A DNA stretch of 64,000 nt from Candidatus Pyrohabitans jungbluthii (GTDB lineage: Archaea; Hydrothermarchaeota; Hydrothermarchaeia; Hydrothermarchaeales; BMS3B), in NCBI GenBank assembly GCA_002010065.2, contig MTMD02000002.1, positions 480,001 to 544,000 on the forward strand, written 5' to 3'. The notes under the pieces were generated by a model, which worked only from the letters and a program-made list of their open reading frames with translations, was not told the origin of the DNA and ran no database searches. The translations under genes were made by a program, and so were the position numbers. This document shows positions 2,623 through 64,000 of this stretch, one piece after another. How positions within the stretch are numbered: position 1 is the first letter of the stretch; each line of letters starts with the position of its first letter.

Positions 2623-3351
2623 ATGAAGATCGCGATTACACGTCCGAAGGGTAAGGAGGGCGCCACGAAGGAGCTGGCTTCTTCTTACGGTTTTGAAGCG
2701 CTGATTGTCAATGCGGTTGAACTCGTGCCTCGAAGCGAAGATGAGGTTAAGGCTGCGGTGGGCGACATAGCGAGCTACGACTGGGTGGTTATAACCAGCG
2801 CCTTTGGCGCAAGGCTCATGCACCGCTACTTTGGCGAGGCGCTGCGCAGGGCTAAAATAGCTGTCGTGGGGGAGAAAACTCGCCAAGCACTGGAAAAGCT
2901 TGGGATAAGCGTTGCGCTAACCCCGGGAGAGTTTCGGAGCGAGGGACTCGTTGCAGCGCTGCGTGAAGCCGGCGCTGAGGGAAAGCGCATCCTCGTTGCT
3001 CGTGCCTCTGCCGGGAGAGAGCTACTCGTCAGAGAACTTGAGAAGATCGCCGAGGTGGTGGAGGTGCCCCTCTACGATTCAGTGATTCCTGAAGATAAAA
3101 GCTCAATCTTTGCCCTGCGCGAAGGCTTAGAAAAAGGAGAGATTAAAGCTGCGGTATTCACCTCCGCCAAGACGGTGGAGAACATCTTCTCTGTGGTAGG
3201 CGACAACCTTGCGGCGTTGCTCAACCGCATCGCTGTCGTCGCTATAGCACCGGAGACGAAGAAGGCGCTGAAGAGCTACGGAGTTGAGCACGTGGCTATG
3301 CCGGAACGCTATACCCTGGAGGAGTGCCTCAGGTTATTGAAGGAGAGGTGA
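2623..3351 (+). CDS. hemD: Uroporphyrinogen-III synthase
   Basis: IAITRP, DWVVITSA, VVGEKT, FTSAKTV motifs. Confidence 0.9.
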   Translation: MKIAITRPKGKEGATKELASSYGFEALIVNAVELVPRSEDEVKAAVGDIASYDWVVITSAFGARLMHRYFGEALRRAKIAVVGEKTRQALEKLGISVALTPGEFRSEGLVAALREAGAEGKRILVARASAGRELLVRELEKIAEVVEVPLYDSVIPEDKSSIFALREGLEKGEIKAAVFTSAKTVENIFSVVGDNLAALLNRIAVVAIAPETKKALKSYGVEHVAMPERYTLEECLRLLKER

Positions 3352-48883: not shown

Positions 48884-50833
48884 ATGGATATAGGAGAGTC
48901 AAAAATTGCAGTTTGTGCAGCAATATTGCTCCTGCTCATGCCTCAAGTCTTTGCTGTGAGCTTTGATGAGATACGCAGCGCAGGCGAGAAGTACTCTAAG
49001 GGCGAGGCTATTATGGTGGACGGCCCCTTCTACGTTGAGGGCAAGCCCTACTACGTTGTTGAGTACATGTTTCAGCGGGAGAGGCGAGCGGCACTAGTTT
49101 ATGACCCCTCGACGGGGGACTTTGTAAAAGACCGCGAAACCATGCGGCGCGTCTTCGCCACCAAGGATTTAAAGTTATTAACGCTCATGGACCCGCTTTT
49201 TTACGCTATTGGAAACAGCTCAAAGATTCCACTTGCTGCCAAGTACGAAACCCAGAACGTGAGAAATTTTGCCTCCTTTTCAAGCATAACTCCCGAGGAG
49301 AGGGTGCTCCTTGAGAGGTTTCTCAGCGCCTATGAGCGTGTGATGGAGGACGTTAAGGAGGTCACAGAGCTTACAAATCAGATGCTTTACCCGGGCGATG
49401 CCTATCACTTCGAGTTCTCCCGCAGGGAGCCCAACATCGTGATTGAGGTTTACAACACCTCAGCGGAAGGCAACTACTCCTATGAGGGTTTCCAGAGGCT
49501 CATAGAAGCCTACGAAAGACTTTATGAAGACTACCTTGCCATGGCAGTGGCACTTAACCATTTTGCAGGCGGACTGGAAGACTACCCTCCAGGGGCGACG
49601 ATACGCGAAAAGTGGGGGGTAATTATTACAAGGGAGGATATAATTGAGGAAATCAGACTGATTAAGAAGAATGCGGATCACATACAGGCTGAAATTGAGC
49701 TGAGAAGGGGCATCCTTGAGTACGACTATGCAGACCTGATCTCCAAAGCATACGAGAGACTGGGCGTTGGCGAGAAAGAGGCTCCCAGAAAAGCTGTGTG
49801 TGGCCCCACTTTCATCTCCCTTTTACCTCTCCTTGCCCTAGCTCTTCGAAAGAGTAATGCAAGGCGCACTGCATTGGTTCTCCTCATTCTTCTGACGCTT
49901 ATCTCGGGCTATGCAGGTGCCTTTGAAGTTCCCTCTGCAGAGGAGCTCATATCCCAGAAGATTTCGCTGGAAGAAGTGAAGAATGTTTCGATCAAGATTG
50001 AGGCGCGCGGCATAACAGAAGCCGAAGCACGGGAGATTCTAGCAGGCTATCCGCTACTTCTCCGCGGGGAGAGCGTTGTGGTTAAAGGTCCCTTCTATGA
50101 AGGCGGCGTGCCCAACTATCTCTTCGAAATTTACCGCGGCGATGCTCCTACTGGCTACGCATTTATGGTTAACTGGGAAACAAAGCTTCTGGTAAGCAGC
50201 CAGCGCGACGCTTACCGTTTGCAGAAGGCGCATTTCCTTGCAGACCTGGTTAGGAGGCACCCTCTCTATGCGCAGGCAAACGCAGAAGCGATAGAAAGCG
50301 CTGCGCACAACGCAACTCTACCGCCTCTTGAGATTTTCCTCATGAATCTCTCTGAGAACATCAAGCTCGGAAAGAAGCTGGAAGAGGAGCTAATAAGGGA
50401 GCCGAGTTTTGACAAGGTGGTCAACCTTACTCAGGTCTACCTCCAGGGCTTCATTCTCATACACAACATAGAAGCCTTAACTTCGCCAGAAGAGGCATTA
50501 AACCTCACCTCAGGCTTCTCAGCAAATAAGCTTTACCTTGAAGCTTATGCGAGGGCTATGCGCGGTTTAAGCGCTGACGAGTACTTTGAGGCAAGGAGGG
50601 CGATGTACAGAGGGAGAACTCTAAACAGGATACCGCTGATGTATAAGCTTAGCGCCCTCGGCTTAAGGCCGTCGAAGGCGCAGGTGGTGCACGACCTTAC
50701 CAGCGACCTCATTTATGACAACATCTTTTTGTGGCGTCTTGGCAAAAAGGTAGACCCACGGCTATTTGCCAGACTTGCCTATAAAGAAGGCACTGCTTCA
50801 CTCCCCTCGGTGCTGGAGGAGGAGAGGGGGTGA
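48884..50833 (+). CDS. Secreted two-domain protein with internal CGP-CTERM-like signal and second signal peptide
   Basis: N-terminal signal (..PQVFA); two related GPFY domains; CGP-TM-basic-TM-AGA at 49799-49921. Confidence 0.65.
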   Translation: MDIGESKIAVCAAILLLLMPQVFAVSFDEIRSAGEKYSKGEAIMVDGPFYVEGKPYYVVEYMFQRERRAALVYDPSTGDFVKDRETMRRVFATKDLKLLTLMDPLFYAIGNSSKIPLAAKYETQNVRNFASFSSITPEERVLLERFLSAYERVMEDVKEVTELTNQMLYPGDAYHFEFSRREPNIVIEVYNTSAEGNYSYEGFQRLIEAYERLYEDYLAMAVALNHFAGGLEDYPPGATIREKWGVIITREDIIEEIRLIKKNADHIQAEIELRRGILEYDYADLISKAYERLGVGEKEAPRKAVCGPTFISLLPLLALALRKSNARRTALVLLILLTLISGYAGAFEVPSAEELISQKISLEEVKNVSIKIEARGITEAEAREILAGYPLLLRGESVVVKGPFYEGGVPNYLFEIYRGDAPTGYAFMVNWETKLLVSSQRDAYRLQKAHFLADLVRRHPLYAQANAEAIESAAHNATLPPLEIFLMNLSENIKLGKKLEEELIREPSFDKVVNLTQVYLQGFILIHNIEALTSPEEALNLTSGFSANKLYLEAYARAMRGLSADEYFEARRAMYRGRTLNRIPLMYKLSALGLRPSKAQVVHDLTSDLIYDNIFLWRLGKKVDPRLFARLAYKEGTASLPSVLEEERG

Positions 50834-50837
50834 AACC

Positions 50838-53417
50838 TTGAATAAGCCCTATCTTTTCTCCCTGAGCTTTGCAGCGGGTGCATTGCTAATAGCCTCGGCA
50901 AGGAAGCTCTCCTTTGTATTGCCCTATGAGGATCTCTCTTTGGCTCTGCTTTTGTTCCTCACCGCCCTTGGCTTTTTGTGTGGCTACTACCCAGGCGGGA
51001 CGATTTCAAAAAGAGGCTTGGCGTTCCTTTTTTTTGCAGCCTCTGCAGCACCTCTGGCTCTTGCAAGTCTTCCCAGCTTTATCGCGGACGGTTACTTAGG
51101 CTTGCTTACGGTGCTCTTCTTCTCAGCCATAGTGGGAAAACTCTTCCGCTTGCATATCTTCTCTGGCTCAGATGCAGAGGCTGTGCTCTGGGGCATAGCC
51201 TTAGCCTTTCTTGCATCGCTCTTTCTTCTGCCAAAGCCGGGTTTGGATACTCTTCTCATATTCGCCTCCATCGCCCTTGCATCCTCAGGTGCGTACCTGC
51301 TGTACTCCGGCAGGTATGAGGATGTGAAATTTGAAAGAGCCAGTTTTTCAGCAGAGGCGATGTCTGCCTTCCTCGTTGCGATGCTTTTCTCAACCTTTGC
51401 ATTCTCTTATTCAAGGGCTGCGGCATGGCTCATCGGCTACACCGGCATTACCTTCTTAAGTGCAGGTGTGGCATTTTTTATTGCAATAGCCGCCGGATAT
51501 TTCCTCGCCGCAAGGAGGCTGGGTTCCCTATCCATAACTGTAGCCCTCTCCGTCCTTCCTGCGGCACTCTTCGTGAGCCTTTTAGCCTTGCCGTACTTAT
51601 CGTCTGCCTTCTCTGGAGGCTCGGTGCTTCGTCTTCTTCCCCTTTTCCTGCTATCCTCCCTCCCAGCCGGAGTGGCTTTCGGGATTCTGACGTGCTCAAT
51701 TCCGGAGAGAATCCCAGACTCGCGTTTTGTGGTTATCTCCCTTGCCCTTCCATTTGGTTTGCTTCTGGACCTGCTCTTAGCTTCGTTTTTGGGTACTAAA
51801 ACAGAATTCTTCTTTATTCCCCTTGCTGCTCTTTCTCTAGCCTTTTTCACCGCCTTTAAGCGAGCGGCGCTCGGCTCACGCAGCGTGGTCACCTTCCTTG
51901 CCCTGAGCCTCCTTGCCGGAGGGGGCGCAGGTATTGTAGCCAGCGACGCTTTTGCCCAGCCGCCCCAGTTAGCCTACCAGCACGAAAGCATGGGTGAGCT
52001 GCTCCAGGTTTTCAGGGAAGACGGAGTAACCAGCCTTAAGATAAATGGATATGAGGCTGCGAGTGATAGGGAGGCTCAGCGGGAAGCAGAAGCTTTCGCG
52101 GGATACGCTGCGATGTTTCTCCATGGTGGCGAGGCTGAGAAGGTGCTTATGCTTGGTATAGGCGGCGGCTTTGCTTTGCGGGCGGTGGAGTATTTTGATG
52201 TTGAAGAGATACATGCGGTAACCAGCGCCGCGCAGGCTGAGGCGGTGGCAGCTTTCTTCTCAGCAAAGAATGAGCTAGCCCTTGAGGATGAAAGGCTTTC
52301 CTTCAGAAAGGGAAGCGCCCTGAGATACCTCCTGCGCACTCCCGAAAGCTATGACGTAATCATCTCCCTGCCTCCCCCTCCTTGGAATTCTAACAACCCT
52401 GCCTACACCAGAGAGTTCTATCTCCTTGCAGCGCAGCATCTCAAGCAAGAGGGAGTCTTTGTCACGAGGCTTCGAAACCTTGAGTATGGGGAGGAGGAGT
52501 TCAAGGTTGCGATAAGAACCTTTATGGATATCTTTCCCCACTCCAGCATGTGGTATGCCGATGGTGATGTAATTCTCGTTGGAAGCGAGGCACCAATGAA
52601 TATAAACTACACGCACATTCGGAAGGTTATTGTTAACAGCCCAGCGAAGCCCGGTTACAGGACCCTATTTAAGGGTGCAACTTATACAGATTCAAACCTT
52701 GTGGATGAGTTCCTGAGCAATCTTTTAATGAGTGCCTCGGAGCTTTATGATTACTCCTATGAGGCGGAGGTAAATACCATATCATCGCCGGTACTTGAAT
52801 TTTCAACCGTGCGCAACCTTTATGTCAAGCCAAATAAAACGCTGGTGGGCAACGTACTCCTCTACAAACTTTCGAGGCAGGGAAATCCCCTTATCTACCC
52901 TGCCCTTGAGGGGCTCTACTCGCGGGATGGCTATAATATAAGGCTCCACTTCCTTAGCCTTGAGGCGAGCTTTGACGAGGACTGGAGTGAAGATTTTGTT
53001 GGCTACGTTTTCCGCTACCGGCCTTTAGCCACCCCTAAGGGTGTAAAGTACCTAAAGTCCTACACGAAGCGAGCCACTTTTGTGAGAGGCAATGAAAGCC
53101 TCAGATTCTACGCCTTCGAGTCCCGTGCATATTCCCTCAGCCGCGGTATGGCAACTCGGGAGGAGATACAGCAGGAGGTTAGGCAAATCCTTGAGGACAG
53201 ACTTTCCTTTCTGAACCAGAGGAAGACAAAGGAAAGTGTGGTTCTGGTTGGCGAGGAGGAGGGCATACTCATGCACGGCGCGCGGGAGGCTTCGCAGGAG
53301 AAGAGCATTCTTCTGGGGTGGTTCTGCAGAGAAAACAAGGAGATATACGTGGTGAGCTACGAGTATTCTGGGAAGGAAAAGCAGGTGATACCTGCAAGCA
53401 TTGCCTGCGTGCATTAA
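50838..53417 (+). CDS. Membrane-fused spermidine-synthase-like protein with C-terminal extension
   Basis: Multi-TM N-terminal half, VLMLGIGGG, YDVIIS, YTREFY; TTG start after GGGGTGA. Confidence 0.7.
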   Translation: MNKPYLFSLSFAAGALLIASARKLSFVLPYEDLSLALLLFLTALGFLCGYYPGGTISKRGLAFLFFAASAAPLALASLPSFIADGYLGLLTVLFFSAIVGKLFRLHIFSGSDAEAVLWGIALAFLASLFLLPKPGLDTLLIFASIALASSGAYLLYSGRYEDVKFERASFSAEAMSAFLVAMLFSTFAFSYSRAAAWLIGYTGITFLSAGVAFFIAIAAGYFLAARRLGSLSITVALSVLPAALFVSLLALPYLSSAFSGGSVLRLLPLFLLSSLPAGVAFGILTCSIPERIPDSRFVVISLALPFGLLLDLLLASFLGTKTEFFFIPLAALSLAFFTAFKRAALGSRSVVTFLALSLLAGGGAGIVASDAFAQPPQLAYQHESMGELLQVFREDGVTSLKINGYEAASDREAQREAEAFAGYAAMFLHGGEAEKVLMLGIGGGFALRAVEYFDVEEIHAVTSAAQAEAVAAFFSAKNELALEDERLSFRKGSALRYLLRTPESYDVIISLPPPPWNSNNPAYTREFYLLAAQHLKQEGVFVTRLRNLEYGEEEFKVAIRTFMDIFPHSSMWYADGDVILVGSEAPMNINYTHIRKVIVNSPAKPGYRTLFKGATYTDSNLVDEFLSNLLMSASELYDYSYEAEVNTISSPVLEFSTVRNLYVKPNKTLVGNVLLYKLSRQGNPLIYPALEGLYSRDGYNIRLHFLSLEASFDEDWSEDFVGYVFRYRPLATPKGVKYLKSYTKRATFVRGNESLRFYAFESRAYSLSRGMATREEIQQEVRQILEDRLSFLNQRKTKESVVLVGEEEGILMHGAREASQEKSILLGWFCRENKEIYVVSYEYSGKEKQVIPASIACVH

Positions 53418-54806
53418 TTATTCTGCGAGGAGCTTGTCACCGAATAGTTTGCGGCTCTCCTCTCTTAGAAGCTTCCGGTGGCTTAGGTAAAGGAACTCTG
53501 CAGTATCGTCAGTTATAATCGGTGTGTCCTCCTCAACCTCAATGGGATAATGGGGTATGTAGAAGGGCTCGGGTGAGGCGTAAAGTATTGAGATGTCTTT
53601 TTGAGCAGGAAGCTGGGCATATACGTAGGGAAACACCTGCTTCAGAGTTTTGTAAACAGCCTTCGCCAGCTTTGCCCTGCGAGGATCTCCAGGAGTCACC
53701 ACCACAACCACGCCCTTTTCGCTTAGCTTGCCTTTCACATCCTCAAGGGCCTCTCTGCTTAAAAGATTAAAGGCGGGAGCAGAGAAGGTATCTATTACGA
53801 TAAGGTCGTACTTTTTCTGTGTACCCCTGATATAGCGTCTTCCGCTGTCTATGGTTACACTACCTGAGTAGCTGAAGTATTTTTTAGCGACCTCAGCTAA
53901 GCCTGCGTCAGCCTCAATCACATCAAGGGCTAAGCCTGCGTCTTGCAGGTTTCTCGCCAGGGTGCCACCCCCCAGGCCTATTAAAAGCCCTCGTTCCACA
54001 TCTGGAATCACATCCGTATATATTCTATTAGTATATTCAAAGCAGGAACCTCGGCTGGAGAGGTCCATGCAGGAGCGCACCTCCCCGTTGACCAGGAGGT
54101 AACGCTTTGCCTCCTGCTCAATCACCTTTATCTGTCCCACCGCACTTTCCTCCTCGTGGACTATCCGCGGGTCCTTCGCTGGCATTAAGTTGAAGGTGTA
54201 GTAGTTGTGGGCAACCAGAATAAAAAACAGGGCTACAGCAAGCTCAGCTTTTTTCATGGTAACATAACCAATAGCTGCAAGCACCATTAGCAAAATGGCA
54301 GAGAGTGTGAGTATGTGTGAAATATTTAGGGCAGGGAGGTAACCAATTACAATTGCAGCAGAGAGTGAGCCCACGCCAGCGATGCCCAAGAACCTTCCTG
54401 CAGCCTCACCCGCCTCTCCTTTGCTGAGCCTTATGCAGTAGGGCAAAACCATGGTGAGGAGGGTTATGGGCAGAGCGAAGAGGAGCAGAGAAGACATTAA
54501 AGCGCCTGCTCTAACTCCCAAAGGCGACGTCAGGAGAAGAACCTTTACCTTCACCAGAGGTATGAGCAGCACAAGTACGCCCGCCAGGAATACTATGAGG
54601 TAAAGCGCTCCCTCCCCGGGCAGGCGGCGGGCAAGCTTCCCTCCCACAAAGTAGCCTAGGGAGATTGAGGCCAGGGCTGCGTATAAAAAGGATGACCATA
54701 CATAAAGCGTAGCTCCATAGAAGGGTGCAAGTATGCGCATCCCCGCTATAGTGAGGGTTATTAGAACGGCGCCGGTGAAGAAGGCGGTAATGTAGAGTTT
54801 TTTCAT
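53418..54806 (-). CDS. Membrane-fused spermidine-synthase-like protein
   Basis: RILAPFYGATLYVW, LIGLGGG, KYDLIVIDTF, IITDD. Confidence 0.75.
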   Translation of the reverse strand: MKKLYITAFFTGAVLITLTIAGMRILAPFYGATLYVWSSFLYAALASISLGYFVGGKLARRLPGEGALYLIVFLAGVLVLLIPLVKVKVLLLTSPLGVRAGALMSSLLLFALPITLLTMVLPYCIRLSKGEAGEAAGRFLGIAGVGSLSAAIVIGYLPALNISHILTLSAILLMVLAAIGYVTMKKAELAVALFFILVAHNYYTFNLMPAKDPRIVHEEESAVGQIKVIEQEAKRYLLVNGEVRSCMDLSSRGSCFEYTNRIYTDVIPDVERGLLIGLGGGTLARNLQDAGLALDVIEADAGLAEVAKKYFSYSGSVTIDSGRRYIRGTQKKYDLIVIDTFSAPAFNLLSREALEDVKGKLSEKGVVVVVTPGDPRRAKLAKAVYKTLKQVFPYVYAQLPAQKDISILYASPEPFYIPHYPIEVEEDTPIITDDTAEFLYLSHRKLLREESRKLFGDKLLAE

Positions 54807-55630: not shown

Positions 55631-55691
55631 AAAAAAGTTTAATAATATTTAATCATATTAGCAAAGTGTGTATAGGATAGGTGTGGGCCAC

Positions 55692-56693
55692 ATGTCGTTG
55701 TCATGGAATAAAGGCATTGTACTGATAGTGTTGCTTCTAAGCATCTCAGTGGTTTATGCAGCTGACCAGTTCTATTCGATTAAAGGTGGCCCCACTTACA
55801 ACGGCTCAAGCGATGGCTGGGTTATGGTTTGGGATGCAGGAGCAACTCAGGACAGCTACCTTAGAGTTGCCTTCTCTGTTAACCGCCCAGCCTACAAGCT
55901 TGGAAAGACTGTTTCGGTAATGATACGTACCGACGGCTATTACTCCAGAGACTCTGGCTGGTGGTATACAGAGGGTGGCGCAAGTGTTGATTATGTAAAG
56001 TTTTACTATCCGAACGGCACACTTATAAAGCAGCTCAGCGGTACCACTGGCAGCGACGGCGTGTGGAAGGACGACACCGCCTTAATGCTCACAAAAGACA
56101 TGCCCATGGGCACCTACAAGGTGGAGGCGAGCGTAACTAAAGGCACGACAACTGTGGGGGATGATGCTGGAGGCTACATGACCATCTACTTCGACGTCGG
56201 AGGAGAGCTTCACCTCACGGTTAATACAAATGCAAGCACAGATAGCAGAGGAAGGTTTGTAGCAGCAAACGGCTCGGTGGTTAGAATTTATGGGCAAATC
56301 CTTCAGCCCAATGGCGACGTGTTCAGCAGCACCACAGTACCTTCGGGAAGTGCTGTTACTGTAAGGCTTGGAATAGTTAAGCCCGACGAGAGCTATACAT
56401 ACATGACCCAAACAACAACCACTGGCGACTATTCCTTTGATGTTCTCCTTGACCAAGTGGGACATTACTTCTTTGTTGTTACCGCCAACTGCACAGTAGG
56501 CGGTCCGATTACTGGCATCAAGTACGTTGTATGTGAGGGAAGAAATCAGACAAATATTATTTCAACGGGAGAGTGGCCAGCGGCGGGGGGCTCCTTCGCA
56601 TCCTCTCCTCTCGCAATTAGCGTGGCGGTGATTCTTGCAATAATATCAGCTTACTACCCAGGGGGTATGCTGTATAGGCGGCTCAGGAAGTAA
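55692..56693 (+). CDS. Secreted beta-rich (Ig-like) surface protein with C-terminal membrane anchor
   Basis: Signal peptide ..SVVYA; Thr/Gly/Tyr-rich beta strands; C-terminal TM and RRLRK. Confidence 0.7.
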   Translation: MSLSWNKGIVLIVLLLSISVVYAADQFYSIKGGPTYNGSSDGWVMVWDAGATQDSYLRVAFSVNRPAYKLGKTVSVMIRTDGYYSRDSGWWYTEGGASVDYVKFYYPNGTLIKQLSGTTGSDGVWKDDTALMLTKDMPMGTYKVEASVTKGTTTVGDDAGGYMTIYFDVGGELHLTVNTNASTDSRGRFVAANGSVVRIYGQILQPNGDVFSSTTVPSGSAVTVRLGIVKPDESYTYMTQTTTTGDYSFDVLLDQVGHYFFVVTANCTVGGPITGIKYVVCEGRNQTNIISTGEWPAAGGSFASSPLAISVAVILAIISAYYPGGMLYRRLRK

Positions 56694-56715: not shown

Positions 56716-59700
56716 ATGAGAAGAGGGCTGGTGTTAGTCTTTACTTTAGCTGTGCTTTTCTCAGTTTCGCCTGTGCATGCCAAGGTTACAAACTGGAACG
56801 TCAACATAGAGTTCAGAGATACCGCCAACAATATAATAACAAGCATACAGCCCGGGCAGACCTTCTATGTGAACATAAGCGTCACCGCCTCCAGCGACAC
56901 CGGCGAAACCTATCCCATGGCGAAGCTGAGCATCCCCCCGGGCTTTACCATAATACCCAAAAAGATAAACGACGGCACCTACGACATTGAAGAACACAGC
57001 GTTCATTTTTACAGTCTTGAAGCAGATGGAGACTGGTATGTTACCGGCTCCAGCCTGGCAGATGGCACAAACTGGAACACAGGCTGGGTTGTTAAGGCTG
57101 ACGACTACTTAATTCCCGGGAAAAACTACACCTTCTTTATTGCGATGTATGACGAGGACACCACAGGCGGTACCAAAACGAGTTACTATGAAAACTTCCC
57201 TGCCTACTACCAAGGCTGGGGTAATAAGTTTTACAAGGATATTTACGTCCAGCCCACTATTTCCACCCTAACGGTAAGTGTGAACTCGACCACCTACGAC
57301 ATAGGTGGAGGCGTAACCGTAGAGGGCTTCAAGATAGGCGACACCGTGCTCATAAGCGGCACCACTGAACCTAACGCTAATGTAAACATTACTATTTGGA
57401 AGCCCCAGTACACCATTGGCGCAAAAATCACAACCACAGCGGATGGTAGTGGGAACTTCCAGGCAACCTACACCCTGACGGAAAACTGGGACAGGCGCGG
57501 TATATATACCGTTGAAGTGATAGCCTACAAGGCTCCCAACCTCATAGCAAGAACCAAAATAAACTTCTACGTTGGCGACAACATAGCTCAGAACGATAAA
57601 GCTTTCAGAAGCAAAAGGGTTTCCCCTCCTGACATAAGCTACTCCTGCGGCGATTGTCATACCGCCGTATTCTTCAACTACAGCGTTATGAGCCAGGCAG
57701 ACCAGATTAATCCTGGCAGTGAAGGGACACCTGATCCACATAAGGAGCATCCTTACCGCTCACCCCCAACAGAGAATTGCGACTGGATTCATTGGATTCA
57801 CGACCCTCTGCCGGAATTTAATGAAAGCAGACTGGCTTCCGGTGTGTTGTTAAAGCAGGATCGCGTTACTGCTGGAAGAAGCTACACACAGCCTGGAGAG
57901 ATTACCCACCTTGCCGAGTGGGAGAGGGATGATGACATACCTCCACCCTATGCGATTACCGAGTTTTATGCAGAGCCATTAAATTATCCTGACTCCGCTG
58001 GTGAGTGGACTGCTTGCAGTATGTGCCACCTGAATGTTCGTGGCTACTCTTACGTGAGGACTGACAACACTCTCACTTGCACACCAAAGGGCAACAACCG
58101 TCCGGGATGTCACGTTGTTGAGAGGGAGGGAACCCATAAATACACACCTTCCTGCCAGAACTGCCACGTTCCTTCGGGAAAGAGCTTGAAGGATGTTGAG
58201 CTTCCCAACTGCCTCAAGTGCCATGCTATTAAAAACTATTGGGAATATGGCGTAGGCACTTCCCACGCCACTGACAGTAGTGGCAGTGATATTACAGATG
58301 CTGTAATGGCAGATGATGAGAATGTTTTTAGATTGGATACTTCGGGGCAGTATGTTGAGGCAAATATCTCCGCTCCCTTCAGAGAGAAAGCCCTTCAGGT
58401 TATAAAAATCGGAGTGAACTGGAACGGCACAACCAGCGGAGGTGCGGGCAATCAGCAGATAGAGCTTCAGTACCTCGACGTAAATGGTATATGGCAGTCC
58501 GCAGGGTTATCTCCTGCTCGGACTACGCCTTTTGAAGCGACAGATTACTTCATTATTAAGAACACCTCAGACCCGAGCTTAACAAATCCCGCCGGGCTGA
58601 ATGAGCACGGTGAGATTGTGGTAAGGGTTGTATATCCAACCGATGGCAATTCTAAAGAATTTGCTGATATTGATTATATCTTCATGGACATTCTAGCGGA
58701 TGATTCAATTGCCCTCGAAGGTGCCCACGAGGGTGTGGAGTGCCTCAACTGCCACGGGCACAGCCACAACGCAACCAGGCAAATCTACTGTACCTCCTGC
58801 AAGGGTCAGAAGCTTGCCCCCGAGGGTGAGCACGTGTGGCAGAAGAAGAACGCCACCGGCGGGGATATAATAGAGGGGGTGAACACCTCCCTGTGGTGTA
58901 CAGAGTGCCACGGTGGATATGGGCACACCTCAATAACAAATACGCCTTCCTGCGCCAAGTGCCACAATCCGAGCGTTGCCAACAAGTCTTGGAAGCGGTA
59001 TTCTTATACCGAAATTCCGCCGTGGGGTCTGGACAACATCCATGGCAGAGCTAACCTCTTCTGCGAGGATTGTCACATTGATAATCACAACGTCACATTG
59101 CCCAGCTGCAACGCAGAGGGCTGCCATATCGCCAATATTTCTGATACTGTACCCAGCTCGGGCTACTACGCCACCTGGGACGACTCCACAAAGACTCACG
59201 ACCCGAGCCACAGCAGCGGTACAAACTATACCATAGAGATGCACGCATACAATGCCAGTGGTTGGTATGGCAAGAGTGACAAGAAATGGGGTGCCACCTG
59301 CGATGAGTGTCACAACAACCATACAAGTGAGGTTTACCTCAAGCTTGAGAACAAGTGGATAAATGCGAGCACCGATTCTATGGTACACTCCACCAACAGA
59401 AGTATAGCCGAGATGGTGCCCTACAATGAGAGTTATGCTTCCTACGATGCAAAGTGGTGTGTTGACTGCCATCAGGATAGAGGAAGCCACTATGGGTGGA
59501 GTTGTCTTGACTGCCACTATCGTGATGACGGCGACGACACGTTTAAGGAGCCTGCCTTCCACAGCGCTAAAATCGCAAAGTCTGGTGGGGGCGGCCCCAA
59601 CTGTATAGGTTGCCACGACATTGGAGGCAGCGCCACCCACATTATAAACGTCACCGCCTTAAATCTGAGCGTTCATGGCGGAATAGTTACCAATTCAAGT

Positions 59701-62700
59701 ACTTATTCCACGTATGGCTTGAATCAGAGCTGCTACGCGTGCCACACCAGTGATGGTCAGGCACCTGATGACATGGGCGACCGTTACAACAACCCGTGGA
59801 CATGTGTTGACTGCCATACCAGCGGAGGTGCAAAGGCTGGTGCCTATGGTGCGCCCATAGTTAGTGAGCACTATCGCAGTGGAGATAATATAACTGCTGT
59901 TGGTTATGCCAGCACCGACGTACTCAGCTGCCTTGCATGCCACCAGAATGCCACTGATGCCAGCCTGAGGGACTTCATGCTCATCCCTGCCAACGATCCA
60001 AATGAGGGTAGCTCCGTCTCAGATGTTGATGGAGATGGGATTAAGGGTGGCAACATAAGCTTCTACCACTATGGTAAGGATAACAGCTGGTTGAGAACAG
60101 GGCCTGGTGGCAGCACTTCCTGTCAGTTCTGCCATCAGAACAACAGCATCTTCACTGCAGTAATGAGCGATTCCACTCACAACAGCATGCAGAACCACAC
60201 TGACAATGCTGTTGTAGACTGTACTGACTGTCATGGTACTGGCTGGATACACAATGCATCGCTCACCAAGCCTGTGCTTACTGCGAGTGATGACAGCGTA
60301 TGTACAAGCTGTCATACAACCAAGAGCCGGCACAACAGCGCTGGCAACCGCGCCAATGCTGAGGAGGTAAAGTGTATTGCCTGCCACACTGGTGATGTAA
60401 ACACCTACCAGCCTAGAGACATCCACGGCATAAAGATTATTAACTCCTCGGGTGGTTATGAACAGTGGGGCACCTCTTCTCCAGCGACCTGTGTCACCTG
60501 CCACCAGAGCAACCTTGGTGGCAAATTTGCGAACGCTTCGCAGGTACCTTCACCGCTCAATCACAGCCAGGATCCCATTGCTGGGCAGAAGTGGAACAAG
60601 ACTTCGCAGGCTTACTGGACTCCTGGCGATGATCAGGAGGCGTGCAACTACTGCCATGGCGATTCCAGGCACGAGGCTAATGCACTGGGCAATGCCTCAG
60701 CTATAGAGGATTCGCTGAGCAGGAACGCCACTGACCTCAGCACCACCAGCTGGTGTGCTGGTTGCCACTACTCGGAGGCGAGCAACTACAACGGCACTGC
60801 CTTCTCGCCTCAGCCGCCCGAGATAATCACCTGGGGTGGCACAGCCAATGATGGCACAAGCTTCCAGAACCACAGCGGCTACCTCTCCAGTGGATACGAC
60901 GATAGTGTGTGCACCTCCTGCCACAGTGGTAGCACCTCTTCGACTGCGCTGTATCCGCACAACGTTTACGAGGGCGTCGCAGGCGGTCCCAACTGCATAA
61001 GCTGCCACGACATAGGTCAGAGTGGTGCTCCCAAGCACATCAACTTCACCGCTGTAAATTCAAGCGAGAATATTCACTTTAATCTGAACAATGCCACTCC
61101 TGTGAGTTATGATCCTGTTAACAGGATTTGCCTTGGCTGTCACAGCAGCGATGGAAGCGAGCCTGCGAGTGGACATCCCACAGGCTACAAGTCGCCTTAT
61201 ACCTGCGTAGACTGCCACGTTAACTCGCCACCTGCCCATGCAAGCAATGCTCCGCAGGTAAGGGAGCACTACCGCAATGGCAGCGAGGTGAAGGCGGTTA
61301 CGGACGCAGCCAGCGACGTGCTCAGCTGCATTGCGTGCCACCAGAACTCTACCACAGCAAATACAATGCTAATACCAGCCAACGATCCTGACTATGGCAG
61401 CTTTGATGCCGATGGAGACGGAGTTAGTGGCGGCAACATAAGCGCCTCTCACTATGGCAAGAAGCGCACTGATATTGTCAGTGGAGGCGTAACAAGCTGC
61501 GCCTACTGCCACCAGAACGCTGGAAGCGAGTTCGCTGGTGTGTTCAACAAGAGCGGTAATGCAGACATGCTTAACCATACTGACAACACCGTGGTAGACT
61601 GCACAGACAGTAACTGCCACTCCTCTGGCAGAATTCACGACTCTGCCTTAACCAAGCCGCCTACGATGTACAACAACACCTACTGTACCACATGCCACAC
61701 TGGCAAGGAGCTTCACGGCAGTAATACCATAACAGGAATAAGTCCACAGGGCAGCGGAGTCAACTGCTATGATTGCCATGCCGATGAAAACAAAGAGGTT
61801 GCTCCCATTCACGGCATAAGCTACATAAACACCACAGGCGGCTTCACAGTTTGGGATAACTCCAGTGCAGCCACCTGCAAGACCTGCCACCAGAGCAGCG
61901 TTGCTGATGCTGCTATAGGAGCAACTGCGCCCAAGATACGCTCACCGCTTCACCACAGCGATGATCCCATAGCCGGATGGAAGTGGAACGCCTCTGGGTA
62001 CTGGAATGACACCAACAGTGTTGAGTACGATGACTCCTGCTACTTCTGCCATGGCAGCGTGAAGCACAGCGCCAACGCCATGGGCTTAATAGTTACCAAC
62101 AACGTGACTGGGAGCAACTCCTACAACACCTCCAGCTTCGACACAAGCTACTGGTGCGCCAACTGCCACTACAGCAACAGCGCTGACAACTATGCAGGCG
62201 ACCTCTTCACGCCTAAAGTGGTTGAGATAACCTCCTGGCCAGTGAACTCAAGCGATGGGCAGCAGGAGTTTGTGAACCATACCAGTTACATCTCATCAGG
62301 TCATACTGATAGCGTTTGTAAGGGCTGCCACGGTGGCTTTGCACCTGAAACCACGGGCGACTTTGCCCACGACGTGGCTATAGGTGCAGCCGGCGGCCCC
62401 AACTGCATAAGCTGCCACGATATTGGCGCCAACCCAAGTGTAACCCACGTGATTAATGTCTCGGCCCTGCAGCAGGGTGTGCACGGCAATATTGATACCC
62501 CAGCGGATGACGCTACATATGGCTTGAATCAGAGCTGCTACGCGTGTCACACCAGTAATGGTCAGGCACCTCCAGAAGGAGATATGGGCGACCGGGCCTT
62601 TAACCCGTGGACATGTGTTGACTGCCATACCAGCGGAGGTGCAAAGGCTGGTGCCTATGGTGCGCCCATAGTTAGTGAGCACTATCGCAGTGGAGATAAT

Positions 62701-64000
62701 ATAACTGCTGTTGGTTATGCCAGCACCGACGTACTCAGCTGCCTTGCATGCCACCAGAATGCCACTGATGCCAGCCTGAGGGACTTCATGCTCATCCCTG
62801 CCAACGATCCAAATGAGGGTAGCTCCGTCTCAGATGTTGATGGAGATGGGATTAAGGGTGGCAACATAAGCTTCTACCACTATGGTAAGGATAACAGCTG
62901 GTTGAGAACAGGGCCTGGTGGCAGCACTTCCTGTCAGTTCTGCCATCAGAACAACAGCATCTTCACTGCAGTAATGAGCGATTCCACTCACAACAGCATG
63001 CAGAACCACACTGACAATGCTGTTGTAGACTGTACTGACTGTCATGGTACTGGCTGGATACACAATGCATCGCTCACCAAGCCTGTGCTTACTGCGAGTG
63101 ATGACAGCGTATGTACAAGCTGTCATACAACCAAGAGCCGGCACAACAGCGCTGGCAACCGCGCCAATGCTGAGGAGGTAAAGTGTATTGCCTGCCACAC
63201 TGGTGATGTAAACACCTACCAGCCTAGAGACATCCACGGCATAAAGATTATTAACTCCTCGGGTGGTTATGAACAGTGGGGCACCTCTTCTCCAGCGACC
63301 TGTGTCACCTGCCACCAGAGCAACCTTGGTGGCAAATTTGCGAACGCTTCGCAGGTACCTTCACCGCTCAATCACAGCCAGGATCCCATTGCTGGGCAGA
63401 AGTGGAACAAGACTTCGCAGGCTTACTGGACTCCTGGCGATGATCAGGAGGCGTGCAACTACTGCCATGGCGATTCCAGGCACGAGGCTAATGCACTGGG
63501 CAATGCCTCAGCTATAGAGGATTCGCTGAGCAGGAACGCCACTGACCTCAGCACCACCAGCTGGTGTGCTGGTTGCCACTACTCGGAGGCGAGCAACTAC
63601 AACGGCACTGCCTTCTCGCCTCAGCCGCCCGAGATAATCACCTGGGGTGGCACAGCCAATGATGGTACCACCTTCAAGAATCACAGTGAATTTGGCATTT
63701 CGCCGTCATCATATACTGACGATAAGTGCACCTCTTGCCACAGTGGTAGCACTTCTTCGACTGCGCTGTATCCGCACAACGTTTACGAGGGCGTCGCAGG
63801 CGGTCCCGAATGTACCACCTGTCACTATATAGGCAGCGCCAATCCCAACATCAACGTCACCGCCTTCTCTCTGGGTGTGCACGGCAAGATAGTTACCAAC
63901 TCCAGCACCTTCTCCACCTATGGCTACAACCAGAGCTGCTGGGCGTGCCATGCCACAGATGGTAGTGTAACTCCCAGTGGTCATCCTGATAGGCAGAAGA
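56716..64000 (+). CDS. Giant secreted multiheme cytochrome c (partial, >2,428 aa, continues past the window end); not in ORF track
   Basis: Uninterrupted frame from ATG 56716; signal peptide MRRGLVLVFTLAVLFSVSPVHA; 48 CxxCH plus CX4CH x2, CX9CH and CxxCK by manual translation. Confidence 0.93.
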   Translation, partial: MRRGLVLVFTLAVLFSVSPVHAKVTNWNVNIEFRDTANNIITSIQPGQTFYVNISVTASSDTGETYPMAKLSIPPGFTIIPKKINDGTYDIEEHSVHFYSLEADGDWYVTGSSLADGTNWNTGWVVKADDYLIPGKNYTFFIAMYDEDTTGGTKTSYYENFPAYYQGWGNKFYKDIYVQPTISTLTVSVNSTTYDIGGGVTVEGFKIGDTVLISGTTEPNANVNITIWKPQYTIGAKITTTADGSGNFQATYTLTENWDRRGIYTVEVIAYKAPNLIARTKINFYVGDNIAQNDKAFRSKRVSPPDISYSCGDCHTAVFFNYSVMSQADQINPGSEGTPDPHKEHPYRSPPTENCDWIHWIHDPLPEFNESRLASGVLLKQDRVTAGRSYTQPGEITHLAEWERDDDIPPPYAITEFYAEPLNYPDSAGEWTACSMCHLNVRGYSYVRTDNTLTCTPKGNNRPGCHVVEREGTHKYTPSCQNCHVPSGKSLKDVELPNCLKCHAIKNYWEYGVGTSHATDSSGSDITDAVMADDENVFRLDTSGQYVEANISAPFREKALQVIKIGVNWNGTTSGGAGNQQIELQYLDVNGIWQSAGLSPARTTPFEATDYFIIKNTSDPSLTNPAGLNEHGEIVVRVVYPTDGNSKEFADIDYIFMDILADDSIALEGAHEGVECLNCHGHSHNATRQIYCTSCKGQKLAPEGEHVWQKKNATGGDIIEGVNTSLWCTECHGGYGHTSITNTPSCAKCHNPSVANKSWKRYSYTEIPPWGLDNIHGRANLFCEDCHIDNHNVTLPSCNAEGCHIANISDTVPSSGYYATWDDSTKTHDPSHSSGTNYTIEMHAYNASGWYGKSDKKWGATCDECHNNHTSEVYLKLENKWINASTDSMVHSTNRSIAEMVPYNESYASYDAKWCVDCHQDRGSHYGWSCLDCHYRDDGDDTFKEPAFHSAKIAKSGGGGPNCIGCHDIGGSATHIINVTALNLSVHGGIVTNSSTYSTYGLNQSCYACHTSDGQAPDDMGDRYNNPWTCVDCHTSGGAKAGAYGAPIVSEHYRSGDNITAVGYASTDVLSCLACHQNATDASLRDFMLIPANDPNEGSSVSDVDGDGIKGGNISFYHYGKDNSWLRTGPGGSTSCQFCHQNNSIFTAVMSDSTHNSMQNHTDNAVVDCTDCHGTGWIHNASLTKPVLTASDDSVCTSCHTTKSRHNSAGNRANAEEVKCIACHTGDVNTYQPRDIHGIKIINSSGGYEQWGTSSPATCVTCHQSNLGGKFANASQVPSPLNHSQDPIAGQKWNKTSQAYWTPGDDQEACNYCHGDSRHEANALGNASAIEDSLSRNATDLSTTSWCAGCHYSEASNYNGTAFSPQPPEIITWGGTANDGTSFQNHSGYLSSGYDDSVCTSCHSGSTSSTALYPHNVYEGVAGGPNCISCHDIGQSGAPKHINFTAVNSSENIHFNLNNATPVSYDPVNRICLGCHSSDGSEPASGHPTGYKSPYTCVDCHVNSPPAHASNAPQVREHYRNGSEVKAVTDAASDVLSCIACHQNSTTANTMLIPANDPDYGSFDADGDGVSGGNISASHYGKKRTDIVSGGVTSCAYCHQNAGSEFAGVFNKSGNADMLNHTDNTVVDCTDSNCHSSGRIHDSALTKPPTMYNNTYCTTCHTGKELHGSNTITGISPQGSGVNCYDCHADENKEVAPIHGISYINTTGGFTVWDNSSAATCKTCHQSSVADAAIGATAPKIRSPLHHSDDPIAGWKWNASGYWNDTNSVEYDDSCYFCHGSVKHSANAMGLIVTNNVTGSNSYNTSSFDTSYWCANCHYSNSADNYAGDLFTPKVVEITSWPVNSSDGQQEFVNHTSYISSGHTDSVCKGCHGGFAPETTGDFAHDVAIGAAGGPNCISCHDIGANPSVTHVINVSALQQGVHGNIDTPADDATYGLNQSCYACHTSNGQAPPEGDMGDRAFNPWTCVDCHTSGGAKAGAYGAPIVSEHYRSGDNITAVGYASTDVLSCLACHQNATDASLRDFMLIPANDPNEGSSVSDVDGDGIKGGNISFYHYGKDNSWLRTGPGGSTSCQFCHQNNSIFTAVMSDSTHNSMQNHTDNAVVDCTDCHGTGWIHNASLTKPVLTASDDSVCTSCHTTKSRHNSAGNRANAEEVKCIACHTGDVNTYQPRDIHGIKIINSSGGYEQWGTSSPATCVTCHQSNLGGKFANASQVPSPLNHSQDPIAGQKWNKTSQAYWTPGDDQEACNYCHGDSRHEANALGNASAIEDSLSRNATDLSTTSWCAGCHYSEASNYNGTAFSPQPPEIITWGGTANDGTTFKNHSEFGISPSSYTDDKCTSCHSGSTSSTALYPHNVYEGVAGGPECTTCHYIGSANPNINVTAFSLGVHGKIVTNSSTFSTYGYNQSCWACHATDGSVTPSGHPDRQK
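59590..64000 (+). repeat. Tandem 12-heme modules starting at 59590, 60982, 62392 and 63799 (last one partial)
   Basis: Each starts GGP-x-CxxCH; lengths 464, 470 and 469 aa; 59791-60854 and 62602-63665 appear identical (offset 2811). Confidence 0.9.

What the first reader, a model, noticed from the sequence alone, without database searches (positions are those of the whole stretch)
59773..63984. One putative distal heme ligand alternates Met/His between consecutive modules
Seen: aligning the modules by eye gives 12 conserved non-motif ligand-like positions for 12 hemes. Eleven are His. The twelfth, following the second CxxCH, is Met in modules 1 and 3 (APDDMGD at 59773; PEGDMGD at 62584) and His in modules 2 and 4 (PASGHPT at 61174; PSGHPD at 63982). 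Known: His/Met c-hemes generally have higher midpoint potentials than bis-His hemes. Inferred: a periodic redox pattern along the chain, which could act as electron traps or steps every second module.
Basis: partly seen in the sequence, partly recalled or inferred. Interest (0 to 1): 0.72.

Follow-up and report, generated by a model that had tools for sequence, protein, structure and literature searches.

The report
Met/His ligand swap in giant cytochrome
In a giant archaeal cytochrome built of repeated 12-heme modules, one probable iron-binding residue is methionine in some modules and histidine in others, which likely sets the voltage of single hemes, but the neat alternation seen here looks like a by-product of duplicating a two-module unit.

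Summary
The Met/His residues are exactly at the stated codons: Met1020, His1487, Met1957 and His2423. They are equivalent positions, each 9 residues before the first Cys of the module's third CxxCH.

The gene runs past the window: 3294 aa, 72 heme motifs, five 12-heme modules. Module 5 has His, so the order is M-H-M-H-H and the alternation does not persist.

Across 514 homologous loops from 204 related archaeal giant cytochromes:
- 432 carry His.
- 51 carry a conserved Met-Gly-Asp type motif without His.
- Only 3 carry neither His nor Met.

This loop is the only inter-motif segment that often lacks His, so an axial-ligand role is well supported indirectly. No heme-containing model or coordinates could be obtained, so it is not shown.

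Alternation is not a family rule. M-M neighbours occur as often as chance predicts. In this gene, modules 1 and 3 are sister copies sharing 1,064 identical nucleotides, and modules 2 and 4 are also sisters. That fits duplication of a Met-module plus His-module pair, followed by gene conversion.

A periodic redox function is possible but unsupported. Natural (GSU1996) and engineered (MtrC) His/Met hemes in heme wires are known. The scan already noted the five-module architecture on this same stretch, and nothing similar on other DNA.

The parts
56716..64000 (+). Giant multiheme c-type cytochrome gene. It is 3'-open in the window and continues to G000:C2:546600. The full protein has 3294 aa and 72 heme motifs.
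59566..60957 (+). Module 1 (aa 951-1414), 12 hemes, Met type
59773..59775 (+). Met1020 codon (ATG), putative distal ligand, in DDMGDR, 9 residues before the Cys of heme 3
60958..62367 (+). Module 2 (aa 1415-1884), 12 hemes, His type; heme 6 motif is CX4CH
61174..61176 (+). His1487 codon (CAT), same column, in SGHPTG
62368..63774 (+). Module 3 (aa 1885-2353), 12 hemes, Met type, 92% identical to module 1
62584..62586 (+). Met1957 codon (ATG), same column, in GDMGDR
63775..64000 (+). Start of module 4 (aa 2354-2828, mostly beyond the window), His type
63982..63984 (+). His2423 codon (CAT), same column, in SGHPDR
59791..60854 (+). First copy of a 1,064-nt perfectly identical tract shared by modules 1 and 3. 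It starts 16 nt after the Met codon.
62602..63665 (+). Second copy of the identical tract

Best explanation
The gene encodes a secreted giant multiheme c-type cytochrome of an archaeon that lacks McrA. It has 3294 aa and 72 heme motifs. It belongs to the family of giant cytochromes known from Methanoperedens, ANME-2 and Geoglobus.

Its last 60 hemes form five tandem 12-heme modules. Each module supplies one distal ligand from each segment between heme motifs. The ligand in the heme 2 to heme 3 loop comes in two forms, both 9 residues before the next CxxCH:
- a His form, ..G-H-P..Y-K-x-P-Y;
- a Met form, ..M-G-D-R-[YF]-x-x-P-[YW].

Inferred: in modules 1 and 3, Met1020 and Met1957 are the sixth ligand of one heme. 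That makes two His/Met hemes of higher potential (local electron sinks) among about 70 bis-His hemes. Which heme they ligate is not determined.

The order M-H-M-H-H is a historical by-product, not a selected period. An ancestral Met-module plus His-module pair was duplicated in tandem. Modules 1 and 3 have since been kept nearly identical by gene conversion.

Across the family the Met form is a recurrent minority variant, about 10-17% of modules. It sits mostly in the first or second module of an array. It probably spreads between module backbones by recombination.
For: Architecture and family:
- searches give the gene length, motif count and five modules.
- one search gives 80 homologues, those with names mostly Ca. 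Methanoperedens or ANME-2, the best 36-43% identical.
- one search finds 295 proteins with E <= 0.001 among 1.84 billion representatives.
- one search finds no MCR_alpha in a genome rated 99.95% complete.

Ligand-like behaviour:
- Of 116 near-full modules, 113 to 116 have at least one His in every inter-motif segment except heme 2-heme 3, where only 93 do.
- At HMM column 72, the 111 non-self modules show H 84, M 18, N 3, S 2 and other 4.
- Of 514 loops in 204 proteins, 432 have His, 51 have MGx[RIK] without His, 28 have another Met without His, and 3 have neither.
- The register is the same for both forms: 288 of 432 His and 48 of 51 Met lie 9 residues before the Cys. His is followed by Pro in 279 of 432 loops. 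Met is followed by Gly-Asp in 46 of 51.
- 7 of 20 Met-type modules have only one His in the heme 1-heme 2 segment and none in the next. They therefore have 11 His-bearing segments for 12 hemes.
- AF2 models the loop confidently, with pLDDT about 88-93 for residues 61-80.

Duplication and conversion:
- M1 and M3 are sisters (100*); M2 and M4 are sisters (90).
- A 1,064-nt tract is identical between M1 and M3. There are also M2/M4 tracts of 95-98% nucleotide identity.
- In a second assembly's version (P0002), two substitutions in M1 are mirrored in M3.
- Contigs of four public runs carry the four codons unchanged. They bridge module 2 into the Met loop of module 3.

No period in the family.

Precedent for the redox effect:
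- Replacing the distal His of MtrC heme 8 by Met gave a +199 mV centre and an electron sink (PMC8488605, passages).
- Each triheme domain of GSU1996 has one His-Met heme (PMC10138318, passages).
Against: - No structure with hemes and no coordinates were available. Fe-S ligation is therefore inferred from conservation only.
- Modules 1 and 3 each hold 13 non-motif His, so a substitute His is numerically possible.
- An extra His in the heme 1-heme 2 segment is commoner in Met-type modules (13 of 20) than in His-type modules (32 of 102).
- M2 and M4 are only about 50% identical and their sister grouping has support 90, unstarred. The pair-duplication history is therefore likely but not proven.
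- M-H-M-H also occurs in P0006 and P0051, and M-H-M in P0020.
- M/H junctions are slightly more frequent than in shuffles: 44 against 38.8, P 0.05, uncorrected for relatedness. Weak selection for alternation is not excluded.
Confidence: 0.6

Rival explanations
1. First reader's reading. The alternation is a selected, periodic redox landscape. A His/Met heme every second module acts as a regularly spaced trap or step along the wire.
For: - The order is M-H-M-H in modules 1-4.
- The same order occurs in P0006 and P0051, and M-H-M in P0020.
- M/H junctions number 44 against 38.8 in shuffles, P 0.05.
- A His/Met heme does act as a sink in engineered MtrC (PMC8488605).
Against: - Module 5 is His.
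- P0007 is M-M-H-H, P0011 is M-M-M-H, P0067 is M-M, and several proteins are H-M-H-H-H.
- M-M neighbours number 5 against 5.5 expected.
- The two Met modules of this gene are sister copies, so the pattern counts as one duplication event.
- The homologue alternations also involve sister Met modules (P0006).
Confidence: 0.12
2. The residue is not an axial ligand. It is a structural or heme-packing residue, and all 12 hemes are ligated by other residues.
For: - No structural test was possible.
- Modules 1 and 3 have 13 non-motif His.
- Another conserved Met (HMM position 137, 78% Met) shows that conserved Met residues exist here without a need for ligation.
Against: - The column is almost only His or Met, the two usual iron ligands.
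- His and Met keep a fixed register.
- Every other segment holds one conserved His.
- 7 of 20 Met-type modules would be one ligand short.
Confidence: 0.12
3. In Met-type modules the heme is ligated by a substitute His (for example the His at HMM position 26) or is five-coordinate. The Met only fills the pocket.
For: - An extra His in the heme 1-heme 2 segment occurs in 13 of 20 Met-type modules against 32 of 102 His-type modules.
- Position 26 is among the columns that covary with the state.
Against: - Position 26 in Met-type modules is H 12, K 5, R 2. It behaves as a basic position rather than a strict His.
- 7 of 20 Met-type modules lack the extra His, while all 20 keep Met-Gly.
Confidence: 0.1

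Closest known systems
Giant multiheme cytochromes of ANME-2 / Ca. Methanoperedens / Geoglobus (ANME MHC types A-C; Chadwick et al. 2022, PMC9012536, passages read)
   Same: - Homologous over the whole module array: E 0, 36-43% identity.
- Tens of CxxCH motifs in one polypeptide.
- The same 12-heme module recurs in tandem in these proteins.
- Presumed role in extracellular electron transfer.
   Different: - No S-layer domain (PF07752) in its Pfam list and no C-terminal membrane helix.
- The host genome has no McrA.
- The passages read from that paper say nothing about distal ligands or about Met and His module types.
GSU1996, the dodecaheme 'nanowire' cytochrome of Geobacter sulfurreducens (PDB 3ov0; PMC10138318, passages read)
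   Same: - A modular single-chain heme wire in which a His-Met heme recurs among bis-His hemes.
- Pfam Cytochrome_C7 matches parts of the module.
   Different: - GSU1996 has one His-Met heme in every triheme domain.
- Here the Met form occurs at most once per 12-heme module and only in some modules.
- No sequence match between the module's heme 1-4 part and 3ov0. The 3ov0 hit lay in parts of homologues outside the module.
MtrC with an engineered His/Met heme 8 (van Wonderen et al. 2021, PMC8488605, abstract and passages read)
   Same: - A His-to-Met swap at one distal ligand of a bis-His heme wire.
- It gave a +199 mV centre that acts as an electron sink.
- Pfam PF22113 (MtrC/MtrF domains II/IV) matches module positions about 243-405.
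   Different: - The MtrC swap is engineered, not natural.
- It lies in a decaheme bacterial protein.
- The natural swap here lies in the N-terminal part of the module, outside the MtrC-like part.
Archaeal extracellular cytochrome filament of Archaeoglobus veneficus (PDB 8e5g)
   Same: It is the only structural match of the modelled heme 1-4 domain.
   Different: The match is weak (Z 3.2, rmsd 4.2 Å over 108 residues) and may be chance. 8e5g is a polymer of small subunits, not a giant single chain.

Membership tests
Giant archaeal multiheme c-type cytochromes (Methanoperedens/ANME-2 type) | Tens of CxxCH heme-binding motifs in one polypeptide | tested here: met
   69 CxxCH plus 3 CXnCH in 3294 aa
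Giant archaeal multiheme c-type cytochromes (Methanoperedens/ANME-2 type) | Sequence homology to named family members | tested here: met
   80 hits with E <= 0.001. Those with names are mostly Ca. Methanoperedens or ANME-2. Identity is 36-43% over 98-100% of the query region. 17 loci in named genomes.
ANME MHC type A/B (S-layer conduit) | S-layer domain (PF07752/DUF1608) and a C-terminal transmembrane helix | tested here: not met
   No PF07752 among the Pfam hits of aa 1-950, M1 or M2, nor in the precomputed list of P0002. The C-terminus ends ...TPFMHNITN without a hydrophobic stretch (by eye).
His/Met-ligated c-type heme | Met at a position otherwise held by a conserved distal His, in the same register | tested here: met
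His/Met-ligated c-type heme | Met sulfur bound to heme iron (structure, 695 nm band, NMR or EPR) | not testable with these tools
   AF2 models carry no hemes and no coordinates are returned
c7-type triheme domain wires (GSU1996 type) | Tandem c7-type triheme domains, each with one His-Met heme | tested here: not met
   Cytochrome_C7 matches only parts of the module. The repeat unit is 12 hemes. The Met form occurs in 2 of 5 modules.
MtrC/OmcA pentaheme domain (PF22113) | Pfam match above the curated cut-off | tested here: met
   47.9 and 46.2 bits against a cut-off of 30, on module positions about 181-405. This covers the C-terminal part of the module only, not the Met/His loop.

The most novel reading that the evidence does not exclude
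Met-type and His-type heme 2-heme 3 loops are interchangeable redox cassettes. Archaea move them between 12-heme modules by gene conversion. This places high-potential His/Met wells at chosen points of wires with more than 50 hemes, preferentially in the first modules of an array. The wells could serve charge storage, rectification or docking of partner cytochromes.
Probability: 0.2. Interest if true: 0.7.

Novelty: new variant of a known kind. Interest (0 to 1): 0.4.

Why it matters
Nobody knows how cytochromes with 50 to 80 hemes shape the energy landscape along their chain. This family offers a natural, recurrent one-residue switch at a fixed place in a repeated module. The switch is His-Pro against Met-Gly-Asp. 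The two forms sit side by side in one protein.

Modules 1 and 2 could be expressed separately and compared by spectroscopy and redox titration. That would be a clean test of how axial ligation tunes long heme wires in archaeal extracellular electron transfer. It could also guide the design of bioelectronic heme wires.

The result also warns that regular patterns in repeat proteins can simply reflect duplication of larger units.

Tried and rejected
Searches that gave nothing usable:
- Tandem Repeats Finder found nothing, because the period exceeds its 500-nt limit.
- PDB sequence search with module 1 gave no relevant hit.
- A profile of the heme 1-4 domain gave only NrfB 2ozy at E 0.24.
- A profile of A2 hit MtrC, MtrF and GSU1996, but through parts of the homologues outside the module. 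It was not used for the ligand question.
- Foldseek against PDB with the whole-module model gave 0 matches.
- Foldseek with the 140-aa domain gave 6 matches with E between 4.5 and 8.7, and none at 0.001.
- VIA-align wide with the whole module gave none with Z >= 2. With the domain it gave only 8e5g_A at Z 3.2.
- No structural analogue therefore tells which heme the residue serves.

Analyses that stayed inconclusive:
- I tried to pair the ligand with a heme through co-loss in degenerate modules. Two related modules lack hemes 1, 2 and 5 (one of them heme 3 as well), together with the His of the first two segments. That is one event only.
- Mutual information of the Met/His state with other columns gave mostly neighbouring positions. 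It is confounded by shared ancestry of the N-terminal part.

Other points:
- No RNA holder was listed among the public runs.
- The organism's name was not obtained. The genome-contig scan leaves out the window's own genome.
- Complex prediction was not used. It scores protein partners, not heme ligation.
- Assembly artefact as the source of the M1/M3 identity was rejected. Unique flanks fix the order. Independent contigs bridge the junctions. A second assembly shows mirrored substitutions.
- Two literature searches found no paper joining ANME or Methanoperedens cytochromes with His-Met ligation. Supplements of PMC9012536 (alignments, S13 Fig) were not opened and could hold relevant alignments.

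Full report
**What is there**

The finding lies in one ORF, window 56716 to beyond 64000 on the + strand. In the genome it runs on to G000:C2:546600. It encodes 3294 residues with 69 CxxCH and three CXnCH motifs, 72 heme sites in all.

The protein has these parts:
- a signal-like N-terminus and about 300 heme-free residues;
- 12 irregularly spaced heme motifs between aa 311 and 934;
- five tandem modules of 12 hemes each.

The modules are M1 aa 951-1414, M2 1415-1884, M3 1885-2353, M4 2354-2828 and M5 2829-3294. Only M1-M3 and the first 75 residues of M4 lie in the window.

Pfam sees cytochrome c7/c3-type, doubled-CXXCH and MtrC/MtrF domain II/IV signatures in the modules. It sees no S-layer domain.

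The genome is 1.99 Mb in 15 contigs and is rated 99.95% complete. It has an archaeal SSU rRNA and no McrA. Four small ORFs with 3 to 7 CxxCH motifs follow the giant gene directly.

**The observation**

- Met1020 at 59773-59775
- His1487 at 61174-61176
- Met1957 at 62584-62586
- His2423 at 63982-63984

All four fall in one alignment column, position 72 of a 464-position HMM built from the five modules. All four lie 9 residues before the first Cys of the third heme motif.

In each own module, every segment preceding a heme motif carries at least one His. The exception is the heme 2-heme 3 segment of M1 and M3, which has no His and exactly one Met. So the count of 11 His plus one Met/His position for 12 hemes is right.

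Three qualifications apply:
- M1 and M3 also hold two non-conserved extra His each.
- A Met at HMM position 137 is conserved in all five modules and in 78% of homologous modules.
- M5 has His2909. The HMM places it three columns off, but it sits in the same register, 9 residues before the Cys.

The order along the protein is therefore M-H-M-H-H. The alternation does not continue.

**Is the position a ligand?**

No tool gave coordinates or a heme-bearing model, so the direct test could not be run. The indirect evidence is strong.

The 12-heme module recurs in tandem in a family of giant archaeal cytochromes:
- 80 hits with E <= 0.001. Those with names are mostly Ca. Methanoperedens and ANME-2, plus Hydrothermarchaeales, Geoglobus acetivorans, Methanosarcinales and one Dehalococcoidales. 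The best are 36-43% identical.
- 20 shorter proteins.
- 295 proteins with E <= 0.001 among 1.84 billion representatives.

In 116 near-full modules, 113 to 116 have at least one His in every inter-motif segment, and most have exactly one. The exception is heme 2-heme 3, where only 93 do. At column 72 the 111 non-self modules show His 84, Met 18, Asn 3, Ser 2 and other 4.

In the enlarged set, 204 of 222 proteins held 514 loops flanked by both heme motifs:
- 432 have His.
- 51 have a Met-Gly-x-[Arg/Ile/Lys] motif and no His.
- 28 have some other Met and no His.
- 3 have neither.

Among near-full modules the figures are 151, 31, 3 and 1.

The register is shared. 288 of 432 His and 48 of 51 Met lie exactly 9 residues before the Cys. 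His is followed by Pro in 279 of 432 loops. Met is followed by Gly-Asp in 46 of 51.

Seven of 20 Met-type modules have only one His in the preceding segment. They would be one ligand short without the Met.

A column held almost only by the two usual iron ligands, in a fixed register, with its own flanking signature for each, is what a distal ligand position looks like.

AF2 models the loop with high confidence. The pLDDT is about 88-93 for residues 61-80, and the mean is 80.9 for the 140-residue heme 1-4 domain. This says nothing about ligation.

**Why it alternates here**

A tree of 126 modules, built without the loop columns, gives these groupings:
- M1 and M3 are sisters (100*).
- They sit inside a starred clade with four His-type modules of other proteins.
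- M2 and M4 are sisters (support 90, unstarred).

That is the pattern expected from tandem duplication of a Met-module plus His-module pair.

M1 and M3 share 1,064 perfectly identical nucleotides, 59791-60854 and 62602-63665. The tract begins 16 nt after the Met codon. Upstream, identity falls to 81-91% around the loop and to 53-76% before it. M2 and M4 share a short tract of 95-98% identity. M4 also shares a block with M1 and M3.

A second assembly's version of the protein (P0002) differs at 23 residues. Its two substitutions in M1 are mirrored at the matching places of M3. The copies therefore evolve in concert.

Contigs of four public metagenome runs from four studies carry all four codons without listed differences. 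One run may be the source sample. The contigs break at the edges of the identical tract and bridge M2 into the Met loop of M3. The architecture is therefore real.

The two Met residues count as one evolutionary event, not two.

**The family view**

Module orders in homologues include:
- M-H-M-H-H (P0006), M-H-M-H (P0051) and M-H-M (P0020);
- M-M-H-H (P0007), M-M-M-H (P0011) and M-M (P0067);
- M-M-H-H-H (P0102);
- H-M-H-H-H-H (P0028, P0149).

I took the 29 proteins with at least one Met-type loop and two or more classed loops, and shuffled the order within each protein:
- M-M neighbours: 5.5 in shuffles against 5 observed, P 0.50.
- M/H junctions: 38.8 in shuffles against 44 observed, P 0.05, uncorrected for relatedness.
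- A Met-type loop comes first in 17 of 29 proteins, against 11.7 expected.

There is no rule of alternation. There may be a preference for the start of the array.

On the tree the Met state needs at least 8 changes, 7 of them forced by starred branches. Shuffled labels need 18.8 on average. With 189 modules, a FastTree of the N-terminal part needs 7 changes and one of the C-terminal part needs 16. The state therefore travels with the N-terminal sub-domain, and modules are mosaics.

The own Met modules are closest in that part to the own His-type M4 (66-70%) and to His-type modules of P0107 and P0022. They are not closest to other Met-type modules.

His (CAT) and Met (ATG) differ at all three codon positions. 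Pro to Gly needs two more changes. Repeated point-mutational origin therefore seems unlikely to me. Exchange of loop cassettes by the gene conversion seen in this very gene seems more likely. This is inference.

**How it most likely works**

- Shown: the sequence facts above.
- Established knowledge: His/Met c-hemes usually have higher potentials than bis-His hemes.
- Experimental precedent (PMC8488605, abstract and passages): changing the distal His of MtrC heme 8 to Met created a +199 mV centre. It showed a 695 nm band and acted as a thermodynamic sink in the heme wire.
- Natural precedent (PMC10138318, passages): each triheme domain of GSU1996 has one His-Met heme.
- Inferred: M1 and M3 each hold one His/Met heme that forms a local well among bis-His hemes. 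The wells may store charge or mark docking or exit points.

The regular spacing is a consequence of the duplication history. I put this at 0.6. The rivals are a selected period (0.12), a non-ligand residue (0.12), and a substitute His or a five-coordinate heme (0.10).

**Comparison and novelty**

The protein is a new member of the known giant archaeal cytochromes (PMC9012536, passages). It has no S-layer domain or C-terminal anchor, and it sits in a genome without McrA.

Variation of distal ligands within cytochrome families is a known theme. One example is His/Cys in MtrA homologues (bioRxiv 10.1101/2025.05.29.656830, passages). The two-form ligand position of the 12-heme module, with its conserved Met-Gly-Asp variant, did not turn up in print in two full-text searches. 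Supplements were not read.

A word search found nothing similar on other DNA.

**Verdict**

Interest is moderate.

Noticed in passing
window 59566-63774 (all modules); HMM position 137, e.g. the DFMLIPANDP stretch of module 1: A second Met is conserved in all five own modules and in 78% of 111 homologous modules. It lies between hemes 4 and 5. It is a 13th ligand-like position for 12 hemes, and its role (packing or ligand) is unknown.
   Followed up: partly
window 58789-58803 (aa 692-696): A CxxCK motif (CTSCK) lies in the irregular N-terminal heme region. The same motif binds the lysine-ligated catalytic heme in NrfA-type nitrite reductases (recalled). It may be chance.
   Followed up: no
window 59107-59127 (aa 798), window 61600-61620 (aa 1629) and G000:C2 near the gene's end (aa 3269): Three heme motifs have longer spacers: CX3CH, and CX4CH twice. 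Heme 6 of module 2 is CTDSNCH where modules 1 and 3 have CTDCH.
   Followed up: no
window 59791-60854 and 62602-63665: A 1,064-nt perfect repeat lies inside one gene. In a second assembly's version of the protein, substitutions in one copy are mirrored in the other. This indicates ongoing gene conversion between non-adjacent modules.
   Followed up: yes
G000:C2:546661-552319, just beyond the window's end: Four small ORFs with 3, 4, 7 and 5 CxxCH motifs follow the giant gene on the same strand. They are a likely electron-transfer gene cluster.
   Followed up: no
window 55668-56693 (+): A 341-aa ORF lies directly upstream. It has a signal-like N-terminus and a C-terminal hydrophobic anchor ending in basic residues, and it has no Pfam match. 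It may be a surface partner of the cytochrome.
   Followed up: no
window 50766-53417 (+) and 53418-54806 (-): Two large neighbouring ORFs, 883 and 462 aa, both carry a spermine/spermidine synthase-like domain.
   Followed up: no
homologue P0040 (3651 aa): This protein has ten near-identical tandem copies of only the first half of the module (HMM positions 3-233, six hemes). The 12-heme module can therefore be split into a six-heme repeat unit.
   Followed up: no
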